The position numbers and the translations under genes were made by a program. Under the pieces are notes generated by a model, which had not been told where the DNA came from, ran no database searches, and saw only the letters and a program-made list of their open reading frames with translations. Of a DNA stretch of 64,000 nucleotides, positions 29,250-53,247 are shown piece after piece. Source of the DNA: Patescibacteria group bacterium (lineage in GTDB: Bacteria; Patescibacteriota; Patescibacteriia; 2-01-FULL-39-33); NCBI GenBank assembly GCA_041662745.1, contig JBAZRV010000003.1:56034-120033 (forward strand). Direction: 5' to 3'. Every line of letters starts with the position of its first letter. The stretch's first letter is position 1.

Positions 29250-30443
29250 CTAACGAACCATTGATAATTTAACATCCGAACGAACGGTGTGGCGGTAGCT
29301 CACGCTATATCGTTTTCGCAAATACTCATCCAAAATATTGCAACATTCTTGGTAGTGCCTCTCCCACTCCCTAATTTTTTGGGCGCTGAATTTTTCCGGA
29401 TCTTTGCCTTCTCGCAAAGCTTTGGCCTTAAGCCGGGCAAGAGTCGGGCCGTAAGGCTTTAGGGGGCCGATATGGACGCGCAAAGCGAAGTTCTCAATAT
29501 GTCTTTCAATCATCTCTAGCCATTTTTTCAAGCTGGCCGGATTCGGATTGTACATTTGCGGGAAAATATCCAGCCCTGCTTCCACTAATGTGCGCAGACA
29601 GAAAACCTGATCGGAAATAGTGGCGTTGGCTTGGACATTGTCTTGCAGATTGGCATTGTCCGTACCCTTAATGGCGGCTAAGACTTTAACCGGAAAAACT
29701 GCCAGATGACGGTAATAATCAATCGGCCACAAATGAGGCGTGGAGAGATTGGTGTCCACTTGTCCGACCATATCCTCTCCCCGTTCTTCAATTCGGCGCC
29801 AGAGTTTGATAATCCAGTCCAGCACTACGGTCGGCTCGCCGCCGGAAACGCGCAGGACTTTAATATTCAGATCAATCCCGGTTTGTTTTTTGTAAATTTC
29901 CCGCACCTTATCCCGAGCCATTAAGAAGCTGTCAATAACATCGTCAACCTCAACCAGCCATTTATTTCCGGTTTGACGCAGGCCGTCATTGAGTTTGTTA
30001 TCCACAAAACAGTAGAGACAACCGCCGTCGCAGGTTCCGGAATGGAAATTGCAGCCGGCGACCTGGAGGATAAATGGCGCATTATAATCTAAGGCGCGGG
30101 ACAATTCATAGCCTGCGATATGCTTGTACCACAAGGCAAAATCAAATTCTTGCTGCTTGAGATAGTCTTCAATTACTCCCGGAGACATCTTGCCGATGTC
30201 AATGAAGTCCTTGCCGTAAGCCTTGGCCGCCAAGGGATCAACATCTTTGGCATTGAATTTGAACCGGAAAACGCGTCGGCCGTCCCGGTTAGGCATCAGG
30301 TCTATAACCTTGCTTGTGTCTTGGCCTTGCAGCGAATCGGAAAAATCCGCTACCAGTAGCCGTCCCCCCGGCGTGATTACGGTTTGGCGCAAGGCGGTGG
30401 CGCGATCTAATGGACTTTGGACATACGACGGATTTTTAGACAT
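29250..30443 (-). CDS. radical SAM protein, uncharacterised subfamily (397 aa)
   Basis: cluster motif C-D-G-G-C-L-Y-C (Cx3Cx2C) preceded by extra Cys (CNFHSGTC); SAM-binding VSGGEPTV; ~130-aa N-terminal extension; overlaps upstream ORF by 8 nt. Confidence 0.7.
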   Translation of the reverse strand: MSKNPSYVQSPLDRATALRQTVITPGGRLLVADFSDSLQGQDTSKVIDLMPNRDGRRVFRFKFNAKDVDPLAAKAYGKDFIDIGKMSPGVIEDYLKQQEFDFALWYKHIAGYELSRALDYNAPFILQVAGCNFHSGTCDGGCLYCFVDNKLNDGLRQTGNKWLVEVDDVIDSFLMARDKVREIYKKQTGIDLNIKVLRVSGGEPTVVLDWIIKLWRRIEERGEDMVGQVDTNLSTPHLWPIDYYRHLAVFPVKVLAAIKGTDNANLQDNVQANATISDQVFCLRTLVEAGLDIFPQMYNPNPASLKKWLEMIERHIENFALRVHIGPLKPYGPTLARLKAKALREGKDPEKFSAQKIREWERHYQECCNILDEYLRKRYSVSYRHTVRSDVKLSMVR

Positions 30444-30900
30444 AATGCTTTTCTCCCTCCTTTAAGAGTTTTGCGAATTCTTCAGCTAGGACTTGCAATT
30501 TTTGTTTGTCTTCCTCTGTCAGTCCGGCCAGAATCTGTTCTCCTCGGAAATGCAATTTTTGTAACAAAATGTAGGCTGATTTAGCGGCGATGTTGATTTC
30601 AGTTATCAATTCGGCAACTTCCATGCACCACAAAGCAGTACCTACTGAATCCTCATACCAATCGCCGGTATTTCCGCAATAACGGTAAAATCGGCAATCC
30701 CGGAAGAAAACAGCAAAAGCTTTCTGCTTGCTTAATTCTTTTAGGATATTGCATATCCTGCCTATGCGATTATCAATGATAATCTGACAATCGATTAGGC
30801 GGCTGATCAGTCCGGGTCCCGAGAGATGGAAAATTACGATGAGCAAATTTAGCATGTCAAGTTTTCCAGCCGGTGTTCGGTTGCGCGCTGTTGTCGGCAT
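30436..30900 (-). CDS. hypothetical protein (154 aa) translationally coupled to radical SAM gene
   Basis: ATG at 30900 with GGGAGG 8 nt upstream; overlaps downstream gene; several Cys (DCQ, RIC, DCRFYRYC, LWC). Confidence 0.55.
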   Translation of the reverse strand: MPTTARNRTPAGKLDMLNLLIVIFHLSGPGLISRLIDCQIIIDNRIGRICNILKELSKQKAFAVFFRDCRFYRYCGNTGDWYEDSVGTALWCMEVAELITEINIAAKSAYILLQKLHFRGEQILAGLTEEDKQKLQVLAEEFAKLLKEGEKHYV

Positions 30901-31035: not shown

Positions 31036-31941
31036 TTATTTTTTCAATTTTTTGTCCCAGATATTCCAGTCTAACAGCAAACAAGAAGCGATAAAAATCG
31101 AGGAGTAAGTGCCGATAAAAATACCTACCAGAAGCGCCAGAGTAAAGTTTTTAGTGCTGGCCCCGCCAAATAAGTAGAGGCAAAATAGAACCAGTAACAC
31201 CGTTAAAGAAGTGTTGATGGAGCGCGTTACGGTTTGGTTGACTGAATCGTTAACCACCTCATCAAATTTTCCGGTATAGAATCTGCCTAAATTTTCTCTG
31301 GTGCGGTCAAATACTACGATAGTGTCATGGACGGAAAAACCCATAATGGTTAGCAGCGCGGTAATGAATAAACCGTCAACTTCCACGCCGGCAAAGCGTC
31401 CCAGAACGGCAAATAAGCCGACGACAATAGTAACGTCGTGGATTAGGGCTAAAATAGCCGAAACGCCGTATTTCCAGGAAGCGACCGGTTTGGAGACTTT
31501 GCGAAAAGCAAAAGCAATGTAGATAATAATGCACAGGGAGGCTACCAGAATAGCCAGCCAGGCCTTTTTCTGCAGTTCTTGGCCGATTACCGGACCGATT
31601 GATTCAAATCTTAATTCTTGGCTTTGGCCGGGGAATTTATCATTGATAGACTGCAGAATTTGCTGATGCTGGTCTTCATTGACGTTTTGAAATTTTAAGA
31701 TGACATTTCTGTCCCCTGACGGCTGGATAATCACCTCACCCAAATCAAGCGATTTAGTTGCTTCTTGGATTTCCGTATTTTGCGGTCGGTTGTCGGTAAA
31801 AGATAATTCCAAGAGCGATCCGCCGGTAAAATCCAGGCCGGGTTTTAGTCCCCAGGCAATAATAGCCAAAACGGAAGCAACAAACAGGAAGCCGGACACC
31901 AGGTAGTAATATTTGCGATTCTTGATGATTTGTAGTTTCAT
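31036..31941 (-). CDS. secF: protein translocase subunit SecF
   Basis: 301 aa, 6 TM, typical SecF N-terminus ...GLDFTGGSLLEL. Confidence 0.9.
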   Translation of the reverse strand: MKLQIIKNRKYYYLVSGFLFVASVLAIIAWGLKPGLDFTGGSLLELSFTDNRPQNTEIQEATKSLDLGEVIIQPSGDRNVILKFQNVNEDQHQQILQSINDKFPGQSQELRFESIGPVIGQELQKKAWLAILVASLCIIIYIAFAFRKVSKPVASWKYGVSAILALIHDVTIVVGLFAVLGRFAGVEVDGLFITALLTIMGFSVHDTIVVFDRTRENLGRFYTGKFDEVVNDSVNQTVTRSINTSLTVLLVLFCLYLFGGASTKNFTLALLVGIFIGTYSSIFIASCLLLDWNIWDKKLKK

Positions 31942-31968: not shown

Positions 31969-33840
31969 TTAAATTTTTTTCTTGATGCCGTACAGCCATT
32001 TGTTTTGCGTCCATTTCCATTTAGCGGTTAATAGCAAGAATTGCCGGCTGATGATAATAGCCGAGAACATGGAAACGGCAATGCCCAAGGCCAGAGTAAA
32101 AGCAAAACCGCGGATAATGCTGGAACCGAACCAGAATAAAATGGCGCAAGTGATTAAAGAGGAAAAGTTGGAGTCGCGGATTGAAGTCCAGGCGCGACCA
32201 AAGCCCTCATCAATGGCTTTCATTATGTCTTTGCCGGCGCGTAGTTCTTCTTTCAGGCGTTCAAAAATCAGGATATTGGCGTCTACGGCCATGCCGATGG
32301 ATAGAATGAAACCGGTAATGCCGGCCAAGGTCATGGTTACATGGATGATTTTAAACAAAGCCAGGGAGATGGCGGTATAAATTATCAAAGCGATAACTGA
32401 CAGTAAACCCGGTAAGCGGTAAAAGCCGATCATGAATAAGGCCACGGCCAATAAGCCGATAAAGCCGGCAAATAAGCTTTTCTGCACTGCTTCTTGGCCC
32501 AAGGTGGCTCCGACGGTGGTTTGGGAAACTAATTTGATCGGTACGGGCAAGGCGCCGGCATTTAAGCGCTGGGCCAATTTTTTGGCTTCATCCTGGGTAA
32601 AATTACCTTGAATTACGGCTTGGCCGCCCAAGATCGGTTCATTGACTTTGGGAATGGAAATAGCGGTGCCATCTAGGAATATGGCGACCGGTTTACCTAC
32701 GTTTCTGGTGGTGATATCGGCAAATAGTTGAGCGCCCTCATTGTCAAATTCCAAGGATACTTGCGGTACTAAGGCAGTCTGATCGTACTCTACTGAGGCC
32801 TTTTTTAAATTTTTTCCGGAAAGTTTAGTATTAATCCACTCCGGCTCTTGAGCGATACCCAAATCAACCGAAGTCTTGGTTTTTAGTAGGATATGGCGGA
32901 CACTAACCGTACGGCCATCGCCCGTCCCCTGATCTCCTTCCAGTTTAATGATGTGATAGCCGAAAGCAGTTTTGACCAGATCATTATAAACTTCGCCGAC
33001 TTTTAGTTTATTAAACGCAACATCGTCAAATTCGGTGACGAATTGGCCTTTTTTTACGCCCTCATATAATCCCCCGTTGTCTTTACTGCCGGGATCCTCG
33101 CTATATTGCTTGGCCAAAGCGGAAAAATCGGCTCCATTCTTAATCTGTTGCAAAATGTTCACAGCTTGCTTGCGCACCGTCAAATTCATATCATCCAATT
33201 GTTTCTGTTGTTCCGGGGTTAGTTGTTGCGCTTGCGGATTTTCTTCTTTGAATTCCAGAAGCGGTGTTTCGCCGATCATTTTGATGGCGGAATTAATGTC
33301 ATAAACGCCGGCCAATTCCACGCTAATACGCGGTTTATCGCCGGACATTGACGTTTGGACAATCGGCTCGGAAACGCCTAAGGCATTAACGCGCCGCTCA
33401 ATAACGTCTTTAGCTCCGGCTAAAGCGTCATTCCTGCCGGCCAGAGGAATTTGTGATAAGTCAGCGTCATAAGTCAACTGGGCTCCGCCAAGCAAATCAA
33501 GGCCAAGACGAAACGGCAGGCCGTAAGATGATAATTCAATTTGTTTAATATTGCGCCAAACCAGCCGACTACTGTTGTCGGAAACGTTTTTTTCCATTTT
33601 AGGGAAAATGTTCAAGTTAGAAATGACGGGAACGGCGGATAACCCGGCGTCCATAGCGTCAGCCGCTTTATTTTTGAAGCCGATGATGTCAATATAGGCG
33701 GCAATCAAAAACAAAATGGCAATACCGAAAAGCACCCAGCGGAGTCGGCCTCTTTGACCGGGTTTTAGCAGTTTTTCAAAGAAATTTTGCTGCATGTGTT
33801 TCTGTGGATAATAGTTAAAATGATGGATAAATCTTAACAA
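31969..33840 (-). CDS. secD: protein translocase subunit SecD with embedded PpiC/parvulin-type PPIase-like domain
   Basis: SecD motifs LGLDLLGGAQ, C-terminal 5-6 TM bundle; periplasmic insert ...GADFSALAKQYSEDPGSKDNGGLYEGVKKGQFVTEFDDVAFNKLKVGEVYNDLVKTAFGYHIIK... matches parvulin signature. Confidence 0.85.
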   Translation of the reverse strand: MLRFIHHFNYYPQKHMQQNFFEKLLKPGQRGRLRWVLFGIAILFLIAAYIDIIGFKNKAADAMDAGLSAVPVISNLNIFPKMEKNVSDNSSRLVWRNIKQIELSSYGLPFRLGLDLLGGAQLTYDADLSQIPLAGRNDALAGAKDVIERRVNALGVSEPIVQTSMSGDKPRISVELAGVYDINSAIKMIGETPLLEFKEENPQAQQLTPEQQKQLDDMNLTVRKQAVNILQQIKNGADFSALAKQYSEDPGSKDNGGLYEGVKKGQFVTEFDDVAFNKLKVGEVYNDLVKTAFGYHIIKLEGDQGTGDGRTVSVRHILLKTKTSVDLGIAQEPEWINTKLSGKNLKKASVEYDQTALVPQVSLEFDNEGAQLFADITTRNVGKPVAIFLDGTAISIPKVNEPILGGQAVIQGNFTQDEAKKLAQRLNAGALPVPIKLVSQTTVGATLGQEAVQKSLFAGFIGLLAVALFMIGFYRLPGLLSVIALIIYTAISLALFKIIHVTMTLAGITGFILSIGMAVDANILIFERLKEELRAGKDIMKAIDEGFGRAWTSIRDSNFSSLITCAILFWFGSSIIRGFAFTLALGIAVSMFSAIIISRQFLLLTAKWKWTQNKWLYGIKKKI

Positions 33841-35060: not shown

Positions 35061-35273
35061 TTATTTATCGGACGGTTTTATTTCTGATTCTAATTTTTGC
35101 AGTTCTTGGCGTAATTGTCGTGTTATTCGCCGATCCTTGGCGATTAAATCCTTTAGACGCTGGCGAAAACTCGCAGTAATCGGTTCATTCAGCAGTTCTT
35201 CCCATTGACGATTGGCCAAAGCCAGCTGTGCCAAGGTCTTTTTTATCTGTTTGATGCGGCGTTTGGCGCACAT
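35061..35273 (-). CDS. hypothetical small coiled-coil protein (70 aa)
   Basis: ORF; R/K/Q-rich helical; hairpin accgcc...ggcggt + U-run on minus downstream (about 34995-35040). Confidence 0.4.
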   Translation of the reverse strand: MCAKRRIKQIKKTLAQLALANRQWEELLNEPITASFRQRLKDLIAKDRRITRQLRQELQKLESEIKPSDK

Positions 35274-53176: not shown

Positions 53177-53247
53177 CTCGGGGACAGGGGCTCGAACCCC
53201 GATTAACGGCTTCAAAGGCCGCTGTCCTACCATTAGACGATCCCCGA
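53177..53247 (-). tRNA. tRNA-Gln (anticodon UUG)
   Basis: cloverleaf folded by hand: acceptor TCGGGGA/TCCCCGA, D-arm GTCT-AATGGTA-GGAC, anticodon stem GCGGC/GCCGT with loop CTTTGAA, T-arm CGGGG-TTCGAGC-CCCTG, discriminator G; CCA not encoded. Confidence 0.85.

What the first reader, a model, noticed from the sequence alone, without database searches (positions are those of the whole stretch)
31969..33840. SecD carrying an embedded parvulin (PpiC-type) PPIase-like domain in its periplasmic head
Within the P1 periplasmic domain of an otherwise canonical SecD (LGLDLLGGAQ, C-terminal TM bundle, followed by secF) lies a ~90-aa insert: ...GADFSALAKQYSEDPGSKDNGGLYEGVKKGQFVTEFDDVAFNKLKVGEVYNDLVKTAFGYHIIKLEG...VRHILLK. 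This reproduces the PrsA/SurA parvulin signature (S.D..S...GG.LG....F...F.l..G.vs.pv.T.fGyHiI). The HIL strand follows rather than precedes, suggesting a permuted or inserted domain. This is a fusion of the post-translocation motor with a foldase, and it makes the protein 623 aa. I am not aware of this fusion being described.
Basis: partly seen in the sequence, partly recalled or inferred. Interest (0 to 1): 0.6.

Follow-up and report, generated by a model that had tools for sequence, protein, structure and literature searches.

The report
SecD with built-in permuted parvulin foldase
The protein-export motor subunit SecD of this candidate-phyla-radiation bacterium has a rearranged but apparently intact prolyl-isomerase (parvulin) folding domain built into its outward-facing moving part, a fusion shared by many related species and not found described in the papers searched.

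The parts
31969..33840 (-). secD open reading frame as listed (TTG start, 623 aa). The probable true CDS is 31969..33795 (ATG at Met16, 608 aa). Residue numbers in the other parts count from this ATG.
33679..33747 (-). TM1 (RLRWVLFGIAILFLIAAYIDIIG). Basic residues precede it (positive-inside rule), which places everything up to TM2 outside the cytoplasm.
   Evidence: Sequence; helix 14-37 in the model; SecD topology from PMC5974789
33484..33507 (-). SecD 'GG' motif LGLDLLGG (residues 97-104)
   Evidence: Invariant G98/L99/D100/G103/G104. The window's own Sec_GG hit is below Pfam's cutoff (14.6 bits against 20.3).
33238..33414 (-). N-terminal part of the P1 base (Pfam SecD_1st), ending in the invariant strand PLLEFK
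   Evidence: aligns to T. thermophilus SecDF residues 33-127
32839..33237 (-). Whole insert (residues 187-319). It replaces the roughly 31-residue base-to-head connector of T. thermophilus SecDF (residues 128-158) and the roughly 25-residue linker of the insert-less relative P0089.
32929..33216 (-). Long entry helix plus parvulin helix 1 through strand 4 (residues 194-289). Contains Ser232-x-Asp234, Gly241-Gly242, Thr276 and Phe-Gly-Tyr-His281.
32911..32928 (-). Hairpin loop GTGDGR (residues 290-295) that joins what are the C- and N-termini of an ordinary parvulin
32878..32910 (-). Permuted first strand TVSVRHILLKT (residues 296-306), carrying His301, the equivalent of Pin1 His59 and the first-strand His of E. 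coli Par10
   Evidence: re-permutation; strand at pLDDT 94-95; His 56/60, Ile 59/60, Leu 59/60
32506..32838 (-). P1 head subdomain plus the returning base strand (residues 320-430), beginning at the invariant Trp320
31996..32505 (-). TM2-TM6 bundle (SecD_SecF_C). Asp505 (window 32281..32283) aligns with the essential T. thermophilus Asp340 of TM4.
31036..31941 (-). secF, 27 nt downstream on the same strand. Asp206 and Arg240 align with the essential T. thermophilus Asp637 and Arg671.
   Evidence: secF lies downstream on the same strand in 68 of 80 related loci

Best explanation
This is the SecD subunit of a working, proton-driven SecDF export motor. A PrsA-like parvulin peptidyl-prolyl isomerase domain has been built into its extracytoplasmic P1 domain, at the junction between the fixed base and the swinging head. 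To fit there, the parvulin is circularly permuted. The chain enters through a long helix directly into parvulin helix 1 and runs to the last strand (GYHIIK, second catalytic His). It then turns back through a short Gly-rich loop to supply the missing first strand (VRHILLK, first catalytic His) and leaves for the P1 head. The four-stranded sheet and the His/Asp/Thr/His active site are thereby rebuilt from a different chain order. Inferred mechanism: as an unfolded secretory protein leaves SecYEG and is caught and pulled by the P1 head, the tethered parvulin binds it. There it catalyses prolyl isomerisation and/or holds the chain against backsliding and aggregation. This would do in one polypeptide what the PrsA lipoprotein does in Firmicutes, and what separate parvulin-containing proteins contacting SecDF are reported or proposed to do in E. 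coli (PpiD, SurA) and Mycoplasma pneumoniae (Mdp proteins). Shown here: domain identity, insertion site, permutation (by sequence and model), conservation, spread, and an intact proton pathway. Inferred only: catalytic activity, substrate hand-over, and replacement of a free PrsA.
For: - **Permutation, sequence test:** Moving the downstream strand to the front extends the Pfam Rotamase match from profile positions 13-96 to 1-96 (+3.7 bits) and Rotamase_3 from 34-112 to 15-112 (+4.8 bits). A scrambled strand gives no gain. Five diverse homologues gain 4.5-12.7 bits on Rotamase_3 with the same extension.
- **Permutation, structural support:** The models show a hairpin of strands 279-289 and 296-305, at pLDDT 88-91 in the full model and 94-98 in the fragment model. 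Isolated parvulins align to the model over only about 80 of their roughly 92 residues, as expected if their first strand cannot be matched in sequence order.
- **Selection:** In 60 single-unit sequences, position 234 is Asp 58 / Cys 2, position 276 is Thr 35 / Ser 25, Gly279 is 60/60, His281 is 59/60 and His301 is 56/60. Mean pairwise identity is 0.54 for the parvulin core and 0.56 for the permuted strand, against 0.32-0.42 for linkers and 0.67-0.68 for the SecD core.
- **Motor intact:** TIGR01129 scores above its cutoff. SecD Asp505, SecF Asp206 and SecF Arg240 align with T. thermophilus D340, D637 and R671, which are essential (PMC5974789).
- **Not an artefact:** 119 of the 120 best database homologues and 80 of the 80 best loci in GTDB species genomes have the same architecture.
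- **Functional precedent:** PpiD contacts the periplasmic domain of SecD (PMC9643414). SurA binds the holo-translocon, with SecDF periplasmic domains proposed to recruit it (PMC9987972). PrsA-like Mdp proteins form a dome on the Sec translocon, which includes SecDF, in M. pneumoniae, and Mpn444 cross-links to SecD and has PPIase activity in vitro.
Against: - No activity data exist for any member.
- The dual-His motif of parvulins can be conserved for structural reasons.
- PpiD's parvulin domain and SurA's first parvulin domain are regarded as non-catalytic (my recollection; notes only that the functional importance of PpiD's parvulin domain has been questioned).
- In the window's own subclade the usual GG-D-L-G[FW] segment reads GG-L-Y-E-G, so the Leu that lines the proline pocket in Pin1 (Leu122) is Tyr here. 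It is Leu in 47 of 60 sequences and Tyr in 7.
- In the two-unit variants one unit has always lost its strand-4 His, so a non-catalytic parvulin is tolerated at this site.
- P0089 shows the insert can be lost.
The His281-His301 juxtaposition and the position of the parvulin relative to the head cavity are therefore inferred from secondary structure, not measured.
Confidence: 0.72

Rival explanations
1. The embedded parvulin is a non-catalytic substrate-binding (holdase or ratchet) module. It enlarges the polypeptide-capturing surface of the P1 head, in the way ascribed to the inactive parvulin domains of PpiD and SurA P1. Prolyl isomerisation would play no role.
For: In every two-unit variant, unit A has lost its strand-4 His (0 of 20), yet the unit is retained. 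The window's subclade alters the GG-DLG pocket segment. The functional importance of PpiD's parvulin domain has been questioned (PMC9643414). SecDF's own proposed mechanism is capture and release of unfolded chains (PMC5974789).
Against: All four active-site equivalents are kept in 56-60 of 60 single-unit sequences spanning 38-92% identity to the window protein. The one substitution seen at position 234, Asp to Cys, is itself a known functional variant. In the two-unit proteins at least one unit retains His plus His (19-20 of 20). The closest relatives are PrsA parvulins; that these are catalytically active is taken from the literature (for example PMC6288519, title only) and not tested here.
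Confidence: 0.2
2. The downstream 'HIL' strand is not part of the parvulin. On this view the domain is an N-terminally truncated, probably decayed parvulin remnant, and VRHILLK is simply the first strand of the SecD P1 head or a linker.
For: Pfam on the native sequence matches only profile positions 29-112 of Rotamase_3. The score gain from re-permutation is modest (about 4-13 bits). No atomic coordinates were available to measure contacts.
Against: The gain is reproducible in 6 of 6 sequences and absent with a scrambled strand. The H-I-L motif is conserved in 56-59 of 60 sequences, while the flanking linkers are only 36-42% identical. AlphaFold2 places the strand in a sheet at pLDDT 94-95, even in a fragment that lacks most of the head. 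The insert-less relative P0089 lacks this strand along with the rest of the insert, so the strand does not belong to SecD proper.
Confidence: 0.04
3. The fusion is an assembly, binning or gene-calling artefact: a chimeric contig or a read-through of two genes.
For: The window and all relatives come from metagenome-assembled genomes. Some record titles carry implausible taxon labels.
Against: The insert is in frame inside one ORF, with SecD sequence on both sides. The same architecture recurs in 119 of the 120 best database homologues and in 80 of 80 independent species genomes from many studies and assemblers. The junction residues (LEFK before, Trp320 after) are invariant.
Confidence: 0.01

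Closest known systems
SecD/SecDF of Thermus thermophilus and Deinococcus radiodurans (PDB 3AQP, 5YHF, 5XAN): the proton-driven post-translocation motor
   Same: One TM helix, the P1 base, the P1 head and a five-TM bundle. 29-32% identity by Foldseek and E 5e-81 by sequence. The essential Asp of TM4 is conserved, as are the SecF Asp and Arg. secF is adjacent.
   Different: About 129 residues (195-323) replace the 31-residue base-to-head connector of the Thermus protein (residues 128-158), and they fold as a parvulin domain. SecD and SecF are separate genes here. There is an extra segment of about 50 residues between TM1 and the GG motif.
PrsA foldase lipoprotein of Firmicutes (PDB 6VJ6, 4WO7, 1ZK6)
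   Different: No lipobox and no N/C chaperone (SurA-like) domain. NCBIfam PrsA models score far below their cutoffs. The strand order is permuted. The anchor is SecD itself rather than a lipid.
PpiD-YfgM and SurA at the E. coli Sec holo-translocon
   Same: Parvulin-containing chaperones located at the periplasmic exit of SecYEG. [quoted passage not shown]
   Different: These associations are non-covalent and dynamic, and the partners are multi-domain chaperones. PpiD's parvulin domain is regarded as inactive (my recollection). In the window protein a single parvulin with active-site residues intact is part of the SecD chain.
Mycoplasma pneumoniae 'dome' complex: PrsA-like lipoproteins Mdp436/444/489 on SecYEG-SecDF
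   Same: In a genome-reduced bacterium with a single membrane, a parvulin foldase is coupled in a nearly obligate way to the Sec translocon that includes SecDF. Mpn444 cross-links to SecD and has PPIase activity in vitro (bioRxiv 10.1101/2025.04.25.650208 and 10.1101/2024.09.05.611430).
   Different: These are separate, very large lipoproteins that form a cage, with no fusion and an unpermuted parvulin. The lineage (Mycoplasmatota) is different.

Membership tests
SecD (TIGR01129 / Pfam SecD_1st + SecDF_P1_head + SecD_SecF_C) | Whole-protein match to the curated SecD equivalog model above its cutoff | tested here: met
   TIGR01129 scores 380.6 bits against a cutoff of 244.4, covering model positions 1-396 of 397. 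The Pfam SecD domains all exceed their cutoffs.
SecD (TIGR01129 / Pfam SecD_1st + SecDF_P1_head + SecD_SecF_C) | Essential proton-pathway residues: T. thermophilus D340 in TM4, plus D637 and R671 in the SecF half | tested here: met
   SecD Asp505 aligns with D340. SecF Asp206 and Arg240 align with D637 and R671. Their essentiality is stated in PMC5974789.
SecD (TIGR01129 / Pfam SecD_1st + SecDF_P1_head + SecD_SecF_C) | Partner SecF encoded adjacently or fused | tested here: met
   secF lies at 31036..31941 (TIGR00966, 294.8 bits). It is downstream on the same strand in 68 of 80 related loci.
SecD (TIGR01129 / Pfam SecD_1st + SecDF_P1_head + SecD_SecF_C) | PMF-dependent stimulation of protein export | not testable with these tools
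   Needs genetics or biochemistry.
Parvulin PPIase domain (Pfam PF00639 / PF13616) | Profile match above the gathering score | tested here: met
   PF13616 scores 82.3 bits (cutoff 22.5) and PF00639 scores 72.2 bits (cutoff 21.7).
Parvulin PPIase domain (Pfam PF00639 / PF13616) | Parvulin fold: a four-stranded antiparallel sheet packed against helices | tested here: met
Parvulin PPIase domain (Pfam PF00639 / PF13616) | Active-site residues equivalent to Pin1 His59, Cys113 (Asp in most bacterial parvulins), Thr152 and His157 | tested here: met
   His301, Asp234, Thr276 and His281 are present and are conserved in 56-60 of 60 sequences. The mapping onto Pin1 and Par10 is by my own alignment with recalled sequences, plus the Pin1 S111/C113/H157 equivalences quoted.
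Parvulin PPIase domain (Pfam PF00639 / PF13616) | Canonical order of secondary-structure elements, with strand 1 at the N-terminus | tested here: not met
   Strand 1 follows strand 4. This makes it a circularly permuted variant, not a standard member.
Parvulin PPIase domain (Pfam PF00639 / PF13616) | cis/trans prolyl isomerase activity | not testable with these tools
   Needs an enzyme assay.
PrsA foldase (NCBIfam PRK03095 and related models) | Full-length match that includes the N/C chaperone domain, plus a lipoprotein signal | tested here: not met
   PrsA models score 53-75 bits against cutoffs of 343-361 and match only residues about 223-356. There is no lipobox, because the N-terminus is SecD TM1. 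The protein is therefore not a PrsA; only its parvulin domain is PrsA-like.
PpiD / SurA-type periplasmic chaperones | SurA-like N-terminal chaperone domain (Pfam SurA_N family) | tested here: not met
   No SurA_N hit appears in the Pfam scan at E up to 0.1.

The most novel reading that the evidence does not exclude
The embedded, permuted parvulin is a catalytically active foldase that rides on the swinging P1 head or hinge of SecD. On this reading, proton-driven head movement is mechanically coupled to prolyl isomerisation and release of the emerging chain. The result would be a single-polypeptide 'pull-and-fold' machine that has replaced free PrsA across a large part of the Patescibacteria. 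It would also be the first natural circularly permuted parvulin, and a Rosetta-stone fusion indicating that SecDF-parvulin coupling is a general principle of bacterial secretion.
Probability: 0.3. Interest if true: 0.75.

Novelty: new variant of a known kind. Interest (0 to 1): 0.6.

Why it matters
How proteins leaving SecYEG are handed to folding factors is still unclear. In E. coli and Mycoplasma the contacts between SecDF and parvulin chaperones (PpiD, SurA, PrsA-like Mdps) are transient or were only recently seen, and their purpose is debated.

A covalent SecD-parvulin fusion that is conserved and under purifying selection across many Patescibacteria lineages is independent evolutionary evidence that the two activities belong together. 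It offers a compact, stoichiometrically defined system for studying that coupling by structure, single-molecule work, or complementation in B. subtilis or E. coli.

It also gives a natural example of fitting a domain into a host loop by circular permutation. It adds a concrete feature to the little-known cell-envelope biology of these ultra-small, largely uncultured bacteria. Current annotation pipelines label these proteins only as 'SecD', so the feature is invisible to anyone reading annotations.

Tried and rejected
- **Assembly or gene-calling artefact:** rejected, because the architecture recurs in 119 of 120 database homologues and 80 of 80 species loci.
- **Donor of the insert:** the closest free-standing parvulin proteins in the 1.8-billion-protein representative search are SurA/PpiD-like multi-parvulin proteins. 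Those with names come from Ignavibacteriota and Acidobacteriota, not from CPR, so no donor was identified. The idea that the permutation arose by duplication and truncation of a tandem-parvulin protein rests on two hints: SurA and 8hm3/8hm4 align through the permuted strand, and two-unit variants exist. It remains untested.
- **P0089 as ancestral state:** I asked whether the insert-less P0089 represents an ancestral insert-less clade. It does not. 118 of its 119 closest relatives carry the insert, so it is best read as a secondary loss.
- **His281-His301 distance:** I tried to obtain model coordinates to measure it, but none are exposed.
- **Free PrsA or parvulin gene nearby:** none was found in the 64-kb window or within 4 kb of secD in the 80 loci. 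Whole genomes could not be scanned.
- **Literature:** searches for SecD with parvulin, rotamase or PPIase domain, with CPR or Patescibacteria, and for 'parvulin' with 'circular permutation', found no description. Subscription-only papers are not covered.
- **Rfam:** the scan of the window found only one tRNA.
Full report
**1. What is at the coordinates.**
The minus strand carries an uninterrupted ORF at 31969..33840 (623 aa from a TTG start). Close homologues are 606-612 aa and align from the ORF's Met16. The probable start is therefore the ATG at 33795, giving 608 aa. Neither start has an obvious Shine-Dalgarno sequence. Residue numbers below count from that ATG.

Pfam places these domains on the 623-aa ORF:

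| Domain | Residues (623-aa numbering) | Note |
|---|---|---|
| SecD_1st | 143-201 | |
| Rotamase_3 | 215-300 | E 5.2e-23, 82 bits, cutoff 22.5 |
| Rotamase | 218-301 | E 7.4e-20 |
| SecDF_P1_head | 339-433 | |
| SecD_SecF_C | 436-605 | |

The curated SecD equivalog model TIGR01129 scores 380.6 bits against a cutoff of 244.4. secF follows 27 nt downstream at 31036..31941 (TIGR00966, 294.8 bits). The surrounding genes are housekeeping: EF-Ts, a PSP1-domain protein, GAPDH, secD, secF, an unannotated 154-aa ORF, a radical-SAM protein and ribosomal protein L21.

**2. The SecD part is a complete motor subunit.**
Against T. thermophilus SecDF (3AQP), residues 95-194 align with Thermus 33-127 (P1 base). 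Residues 324-588 align with Thermus 159-423 (head, returning base strand, TM2-6). The Asp in 'AVDAN' (Asp505) aligns with Thermus Asp340. SecF Asp206 and Arg240 align with Asp637 and Arg671. These three residues are the essential proton-pathway residues of SecDF (PMC5974789). An N-terminal hydrophobic helix preceded by basic residues gives the usual topology, so the whole P1 domain, insert included, lies outside the cytoplasmic membrane. Foldseek on the full-length model returns the SecDF crystal structures first (E 1e-24 to 1e-12).

**3. The insert is a parvulin, and it is circularly permuted.**
About 129 residues (195-323) occupy the place of the 31-residue base-to-head connector of the Thermus protein. 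The closest solved sequences are PrsA parvulin domains (6VJ6, E 2e-18).

On the native sequence, Pfam matches only profile positions 29-112 of 116, so the first strand of the domain is missing at the N-terminus. Directly after the last strand (FGYHIIKLEG) comes a Gly-rich loop (GTGDGR) and then TVSVRHILLKT. This resembles the opening strand of parvulins, which carries the first catalytic His.

I tested the permutation in four ways.
- **(a) Re-permutation in silico.**
  - Window protein: moving the 22 residues around VRHILLK to the front extended the Rotamase match from profile 13-96 to 1-96 (76.4 to 80.1 bits). It extended Rotamase_3 from 34-112 to 15-112 (87.6 to 92.4 bits). A scrambled version of the strand gave no gain (75.7 and 86.7 bits).
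  - Five diverse family members (38-51% identical to the window's junction region): Rotamase_3 rose by 4.5-12.7 bits, again with extension to the N-terminal part of the profile.
- **(b) AlphaFold2.** The full-length model predicts strands at 279-289 and 296-305 joined by the loop. The insert is the most confident part of the protein (pLDDT 88-91). A model of the junction fragment alone has pLDDT 94-98 across the unit, including the displaced strand.
- **(d) Conservation.** H-I-L in the displaced strand is kept in 56, 59 and 59 of 60 sequences. P0089, a close relative that lacks the insert, lacks this strand too, so the strand belongs to the parvulin and not to SecD.

The side-by-side placement of His281 and His301 is therefore inferred, not measured.

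**4. Is the active site kept?**
I aligned the insert by eye with E. coli Par10 and human Pin1, using sequences recalled from memory. The Pin1 S111, C113 and H157 equivalences are quoted. The active-site equivalents are Ser232-x-Asp234, Thr276, His281 and His301, with Phe252 and Phe256 in the hydrophobic pocket.

In 60 single-unit family members the counts are as follows:

| Position | Residues observed |
|---|---|
| 234 | Asp 58, Cys 2 |
| 276 | Thr 35, Ser 25 |
| 279 | Gly 60 |
| 281 | His 59 |
| 301 | His 56 |

Mean pairwise identity is 0.54 for the parvulin core and 0.56 for the displaced strand. Linkers show 0.32-0.42 and the SecD core 0.67-0.68. The insert is thus under purifying selection.

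One caveat applies. In the window's own subclade the common GG-D-L-G[FW] segment reads GG-L-Y-E-G, so the pocket Leu is Tyr here.

**5. Distribution.**
Of the 120 best hits in a 5.8-billion-protein database, 119 carry both SecD and Rotamase Pfam domains. Where named, they are called only 'protein translocase subunit SecD', from Patescibacteria, Buchananbacteria, Falkowbacteria, Uhrbacteria or Parcubacteria.

All 80 retained loci have the order SecD-N, parvulin, head by my own sub-domain HMMs. Of these, 59 are complete single-unit proteins and 16 are complete two-unit proteins.

Record titles add Komeili-, Kuenen-, Magasanik- and Kerfeldbacteria, Moraniibacteriota and one 'Saccharibacteria' label. 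Several loci carry 'uncultured Gammaproteobacteria', 'Lysobacteraceae' or 'Bathyarchaeia' labels. I did not verify these and suspect they are default or mis-binned names. The nearest genome (L004, 92% identical in the junction) is a Candidatus Buchananbacteria MAG.

One 905-aa protein is a fused SecDF with the same insert. P0089 (500 aa) has a roughly 25-residue linker instead. Because 118 of its 119 nearest relatives carry the insert, it is best read as a secondary loss. I could not determine what fraction of all Patescibacteria carry the fusion, nor whether genomes with it lack a free PrsA.

**6. How it most likely works.**
SecDF is thought to catch the emerging chain in the P1-head cavity and pull it by proton-driven swinging of the head between the membrane-facing and upright forms (PMC5974789). 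The parvulin is spliced into one of the two chain segments that connect base and head. It is entered through a 26-residue helix (194-219). This should put it next to the head at the translocon exit.

I propose that it acts on the same emerging chain as a prolyl isomerase and/or holdase, doing the job of PrsA. Three precedents exist for non-covalent partnerships:
- PpiD contacts the periplasmic domain of SecD (PMC9643414).
- SurA binds the holo-translocon, and SecDF periplasmic domains are proposed to recruit it (PMC9987972).
- In M. pneumoniae, PrsA-like lipoproteins form a dome on the Sec translocon that includes SecDF. Mpn444 cross-links to SecD and has PPIase activity in vitro.

The fusion is a covalent counterpart of these contacts. 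The main rival is a purely non-catalytic binding role. It is favoured by the degenerate unit in the two-unit variants and disfavoured by the near-invariant active site in single-unit proteins.

**7. Comparison and membership.**
The protein is a member of the SecD family, with all testable defining features met. Its insert is a parvulin by profile, fold and active site. It fails the canonical element order, so I file it as a circularly permuted variant. It is not a PrsA, PpiD or SurA, because the chaperone domains, the lipobox and the full-length model scores are all absent.

**8. Novelty.**
Both domains and both functions are known, and so is the idea that parvulin chaperones work at the Sec exit. 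Three things appear to be undescribed: the covalent insertion into SecD, its breadth in Patescibacteria, and the circular permutation of a parvulin. Six full-text searches found nothing on any of them. The searchable library omits most subscription journals. The domain combination is also visible in automatic Pfam annotation, so it may have been noticed informally. I rate it a new variant of a known kind, of solid interest to secretion and CPR specialists (0.6).

Noticed in passing
Related proteins P0087, P0101, P0114, P0116 and loci L053, L058-L061, L065, L068, L069, L071-L075, L077-L079 (same insertion site as window 32839..33237): About a fifth of family members carry two tandem parvulin units at the same site in SecD. 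Unit A has always lost its strand-4 His (0 of 20). The strand between the units (KASHILICY.G...C, with two conserved Cys) keeps its His in 19 of 20. Unit B (S-T-E-P-G, so Asp is replaced by Glu) keeps its strand-4 His in 20 of 20. The terminal strand keeps His in only 8 of 20 and is Arg in 12. This pattern fits an intact canonical parvulin nested in the hairpin of a degenerate permuted one, but the strand pairing was not resolved.
   Followed up: partly
P0089 (500 aa) and P0281 (777 aa), relatives of window 31969..33795: These are two SecD relatives without the rotamase domain. 118 of P0089's 119 closest relatives carry the insert. P0089 has a roughly 25-residue linker exactly where the insert sits, which suggests clean secondary loss.
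   Followed up: partly
P0143 (905 aa; Logan assembly): A single-chain SecDF fusion that also contains the embedded rotamase domain: SecD_1st, Rotamase, P1_head and two SecD_SecF_C matches.
   Followed up: no
window 33508..33678 (residues about 40-96 of SecD): An extra segment of about 55 residues lies between TM1 and the LGLDLLGG motif. The model predicts two short strands in it. The N-terminal region that includes this segment (residues 1-89) is poorly conserved (mean identity 0.32). The Thermus SecDF alignment begins only at residue 95, so no counterpart was seen there.
   Followed up: no
window 30436..30900 (-) and 35061..35273 (-): Two ORFs, of 154 aa and 70 aa, have no Pfam match. The 154-aa ORF sits between secF and a weak radical-SAM match (29250..30443, 28.6 bits, just below the cutoff of 29.5).
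   Followed up: no
Loci L002, L003, L011, L012, L021 and others: Many GTDB-representative MAG records that carry this clearly CPR-type SecD are titled 'uncultured Gammaproteobacteria bacterium', 'Lysobacteraceae bacterium' or 'Candidatus Bathyarchaeia archaeon'. These are probably default or mis-binned labels in the source records.
   Followed up: no
P0129, P0135, P0139, P0157, P0171, P0227 (one search hits): These free-standing proteins carry several tandem rotamase repeats each (multiple matched stretches per protein in the Pfam scan). The two with source names, P0135 and P0139, are called SurA-like, and P0139's cluster includes Ignavibacteriota and Melioribacteraceae members. They are the best non-SecD matches to the insert, which shows that tandem parvulin arrays (possible raw material for a permutation by duplication) are common.
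   Followed up: partly
window 53177..53247 (-): This is the only Rfam gathering-threshold hit in the 64-kb window, a single tRNA.
   Followed up: no
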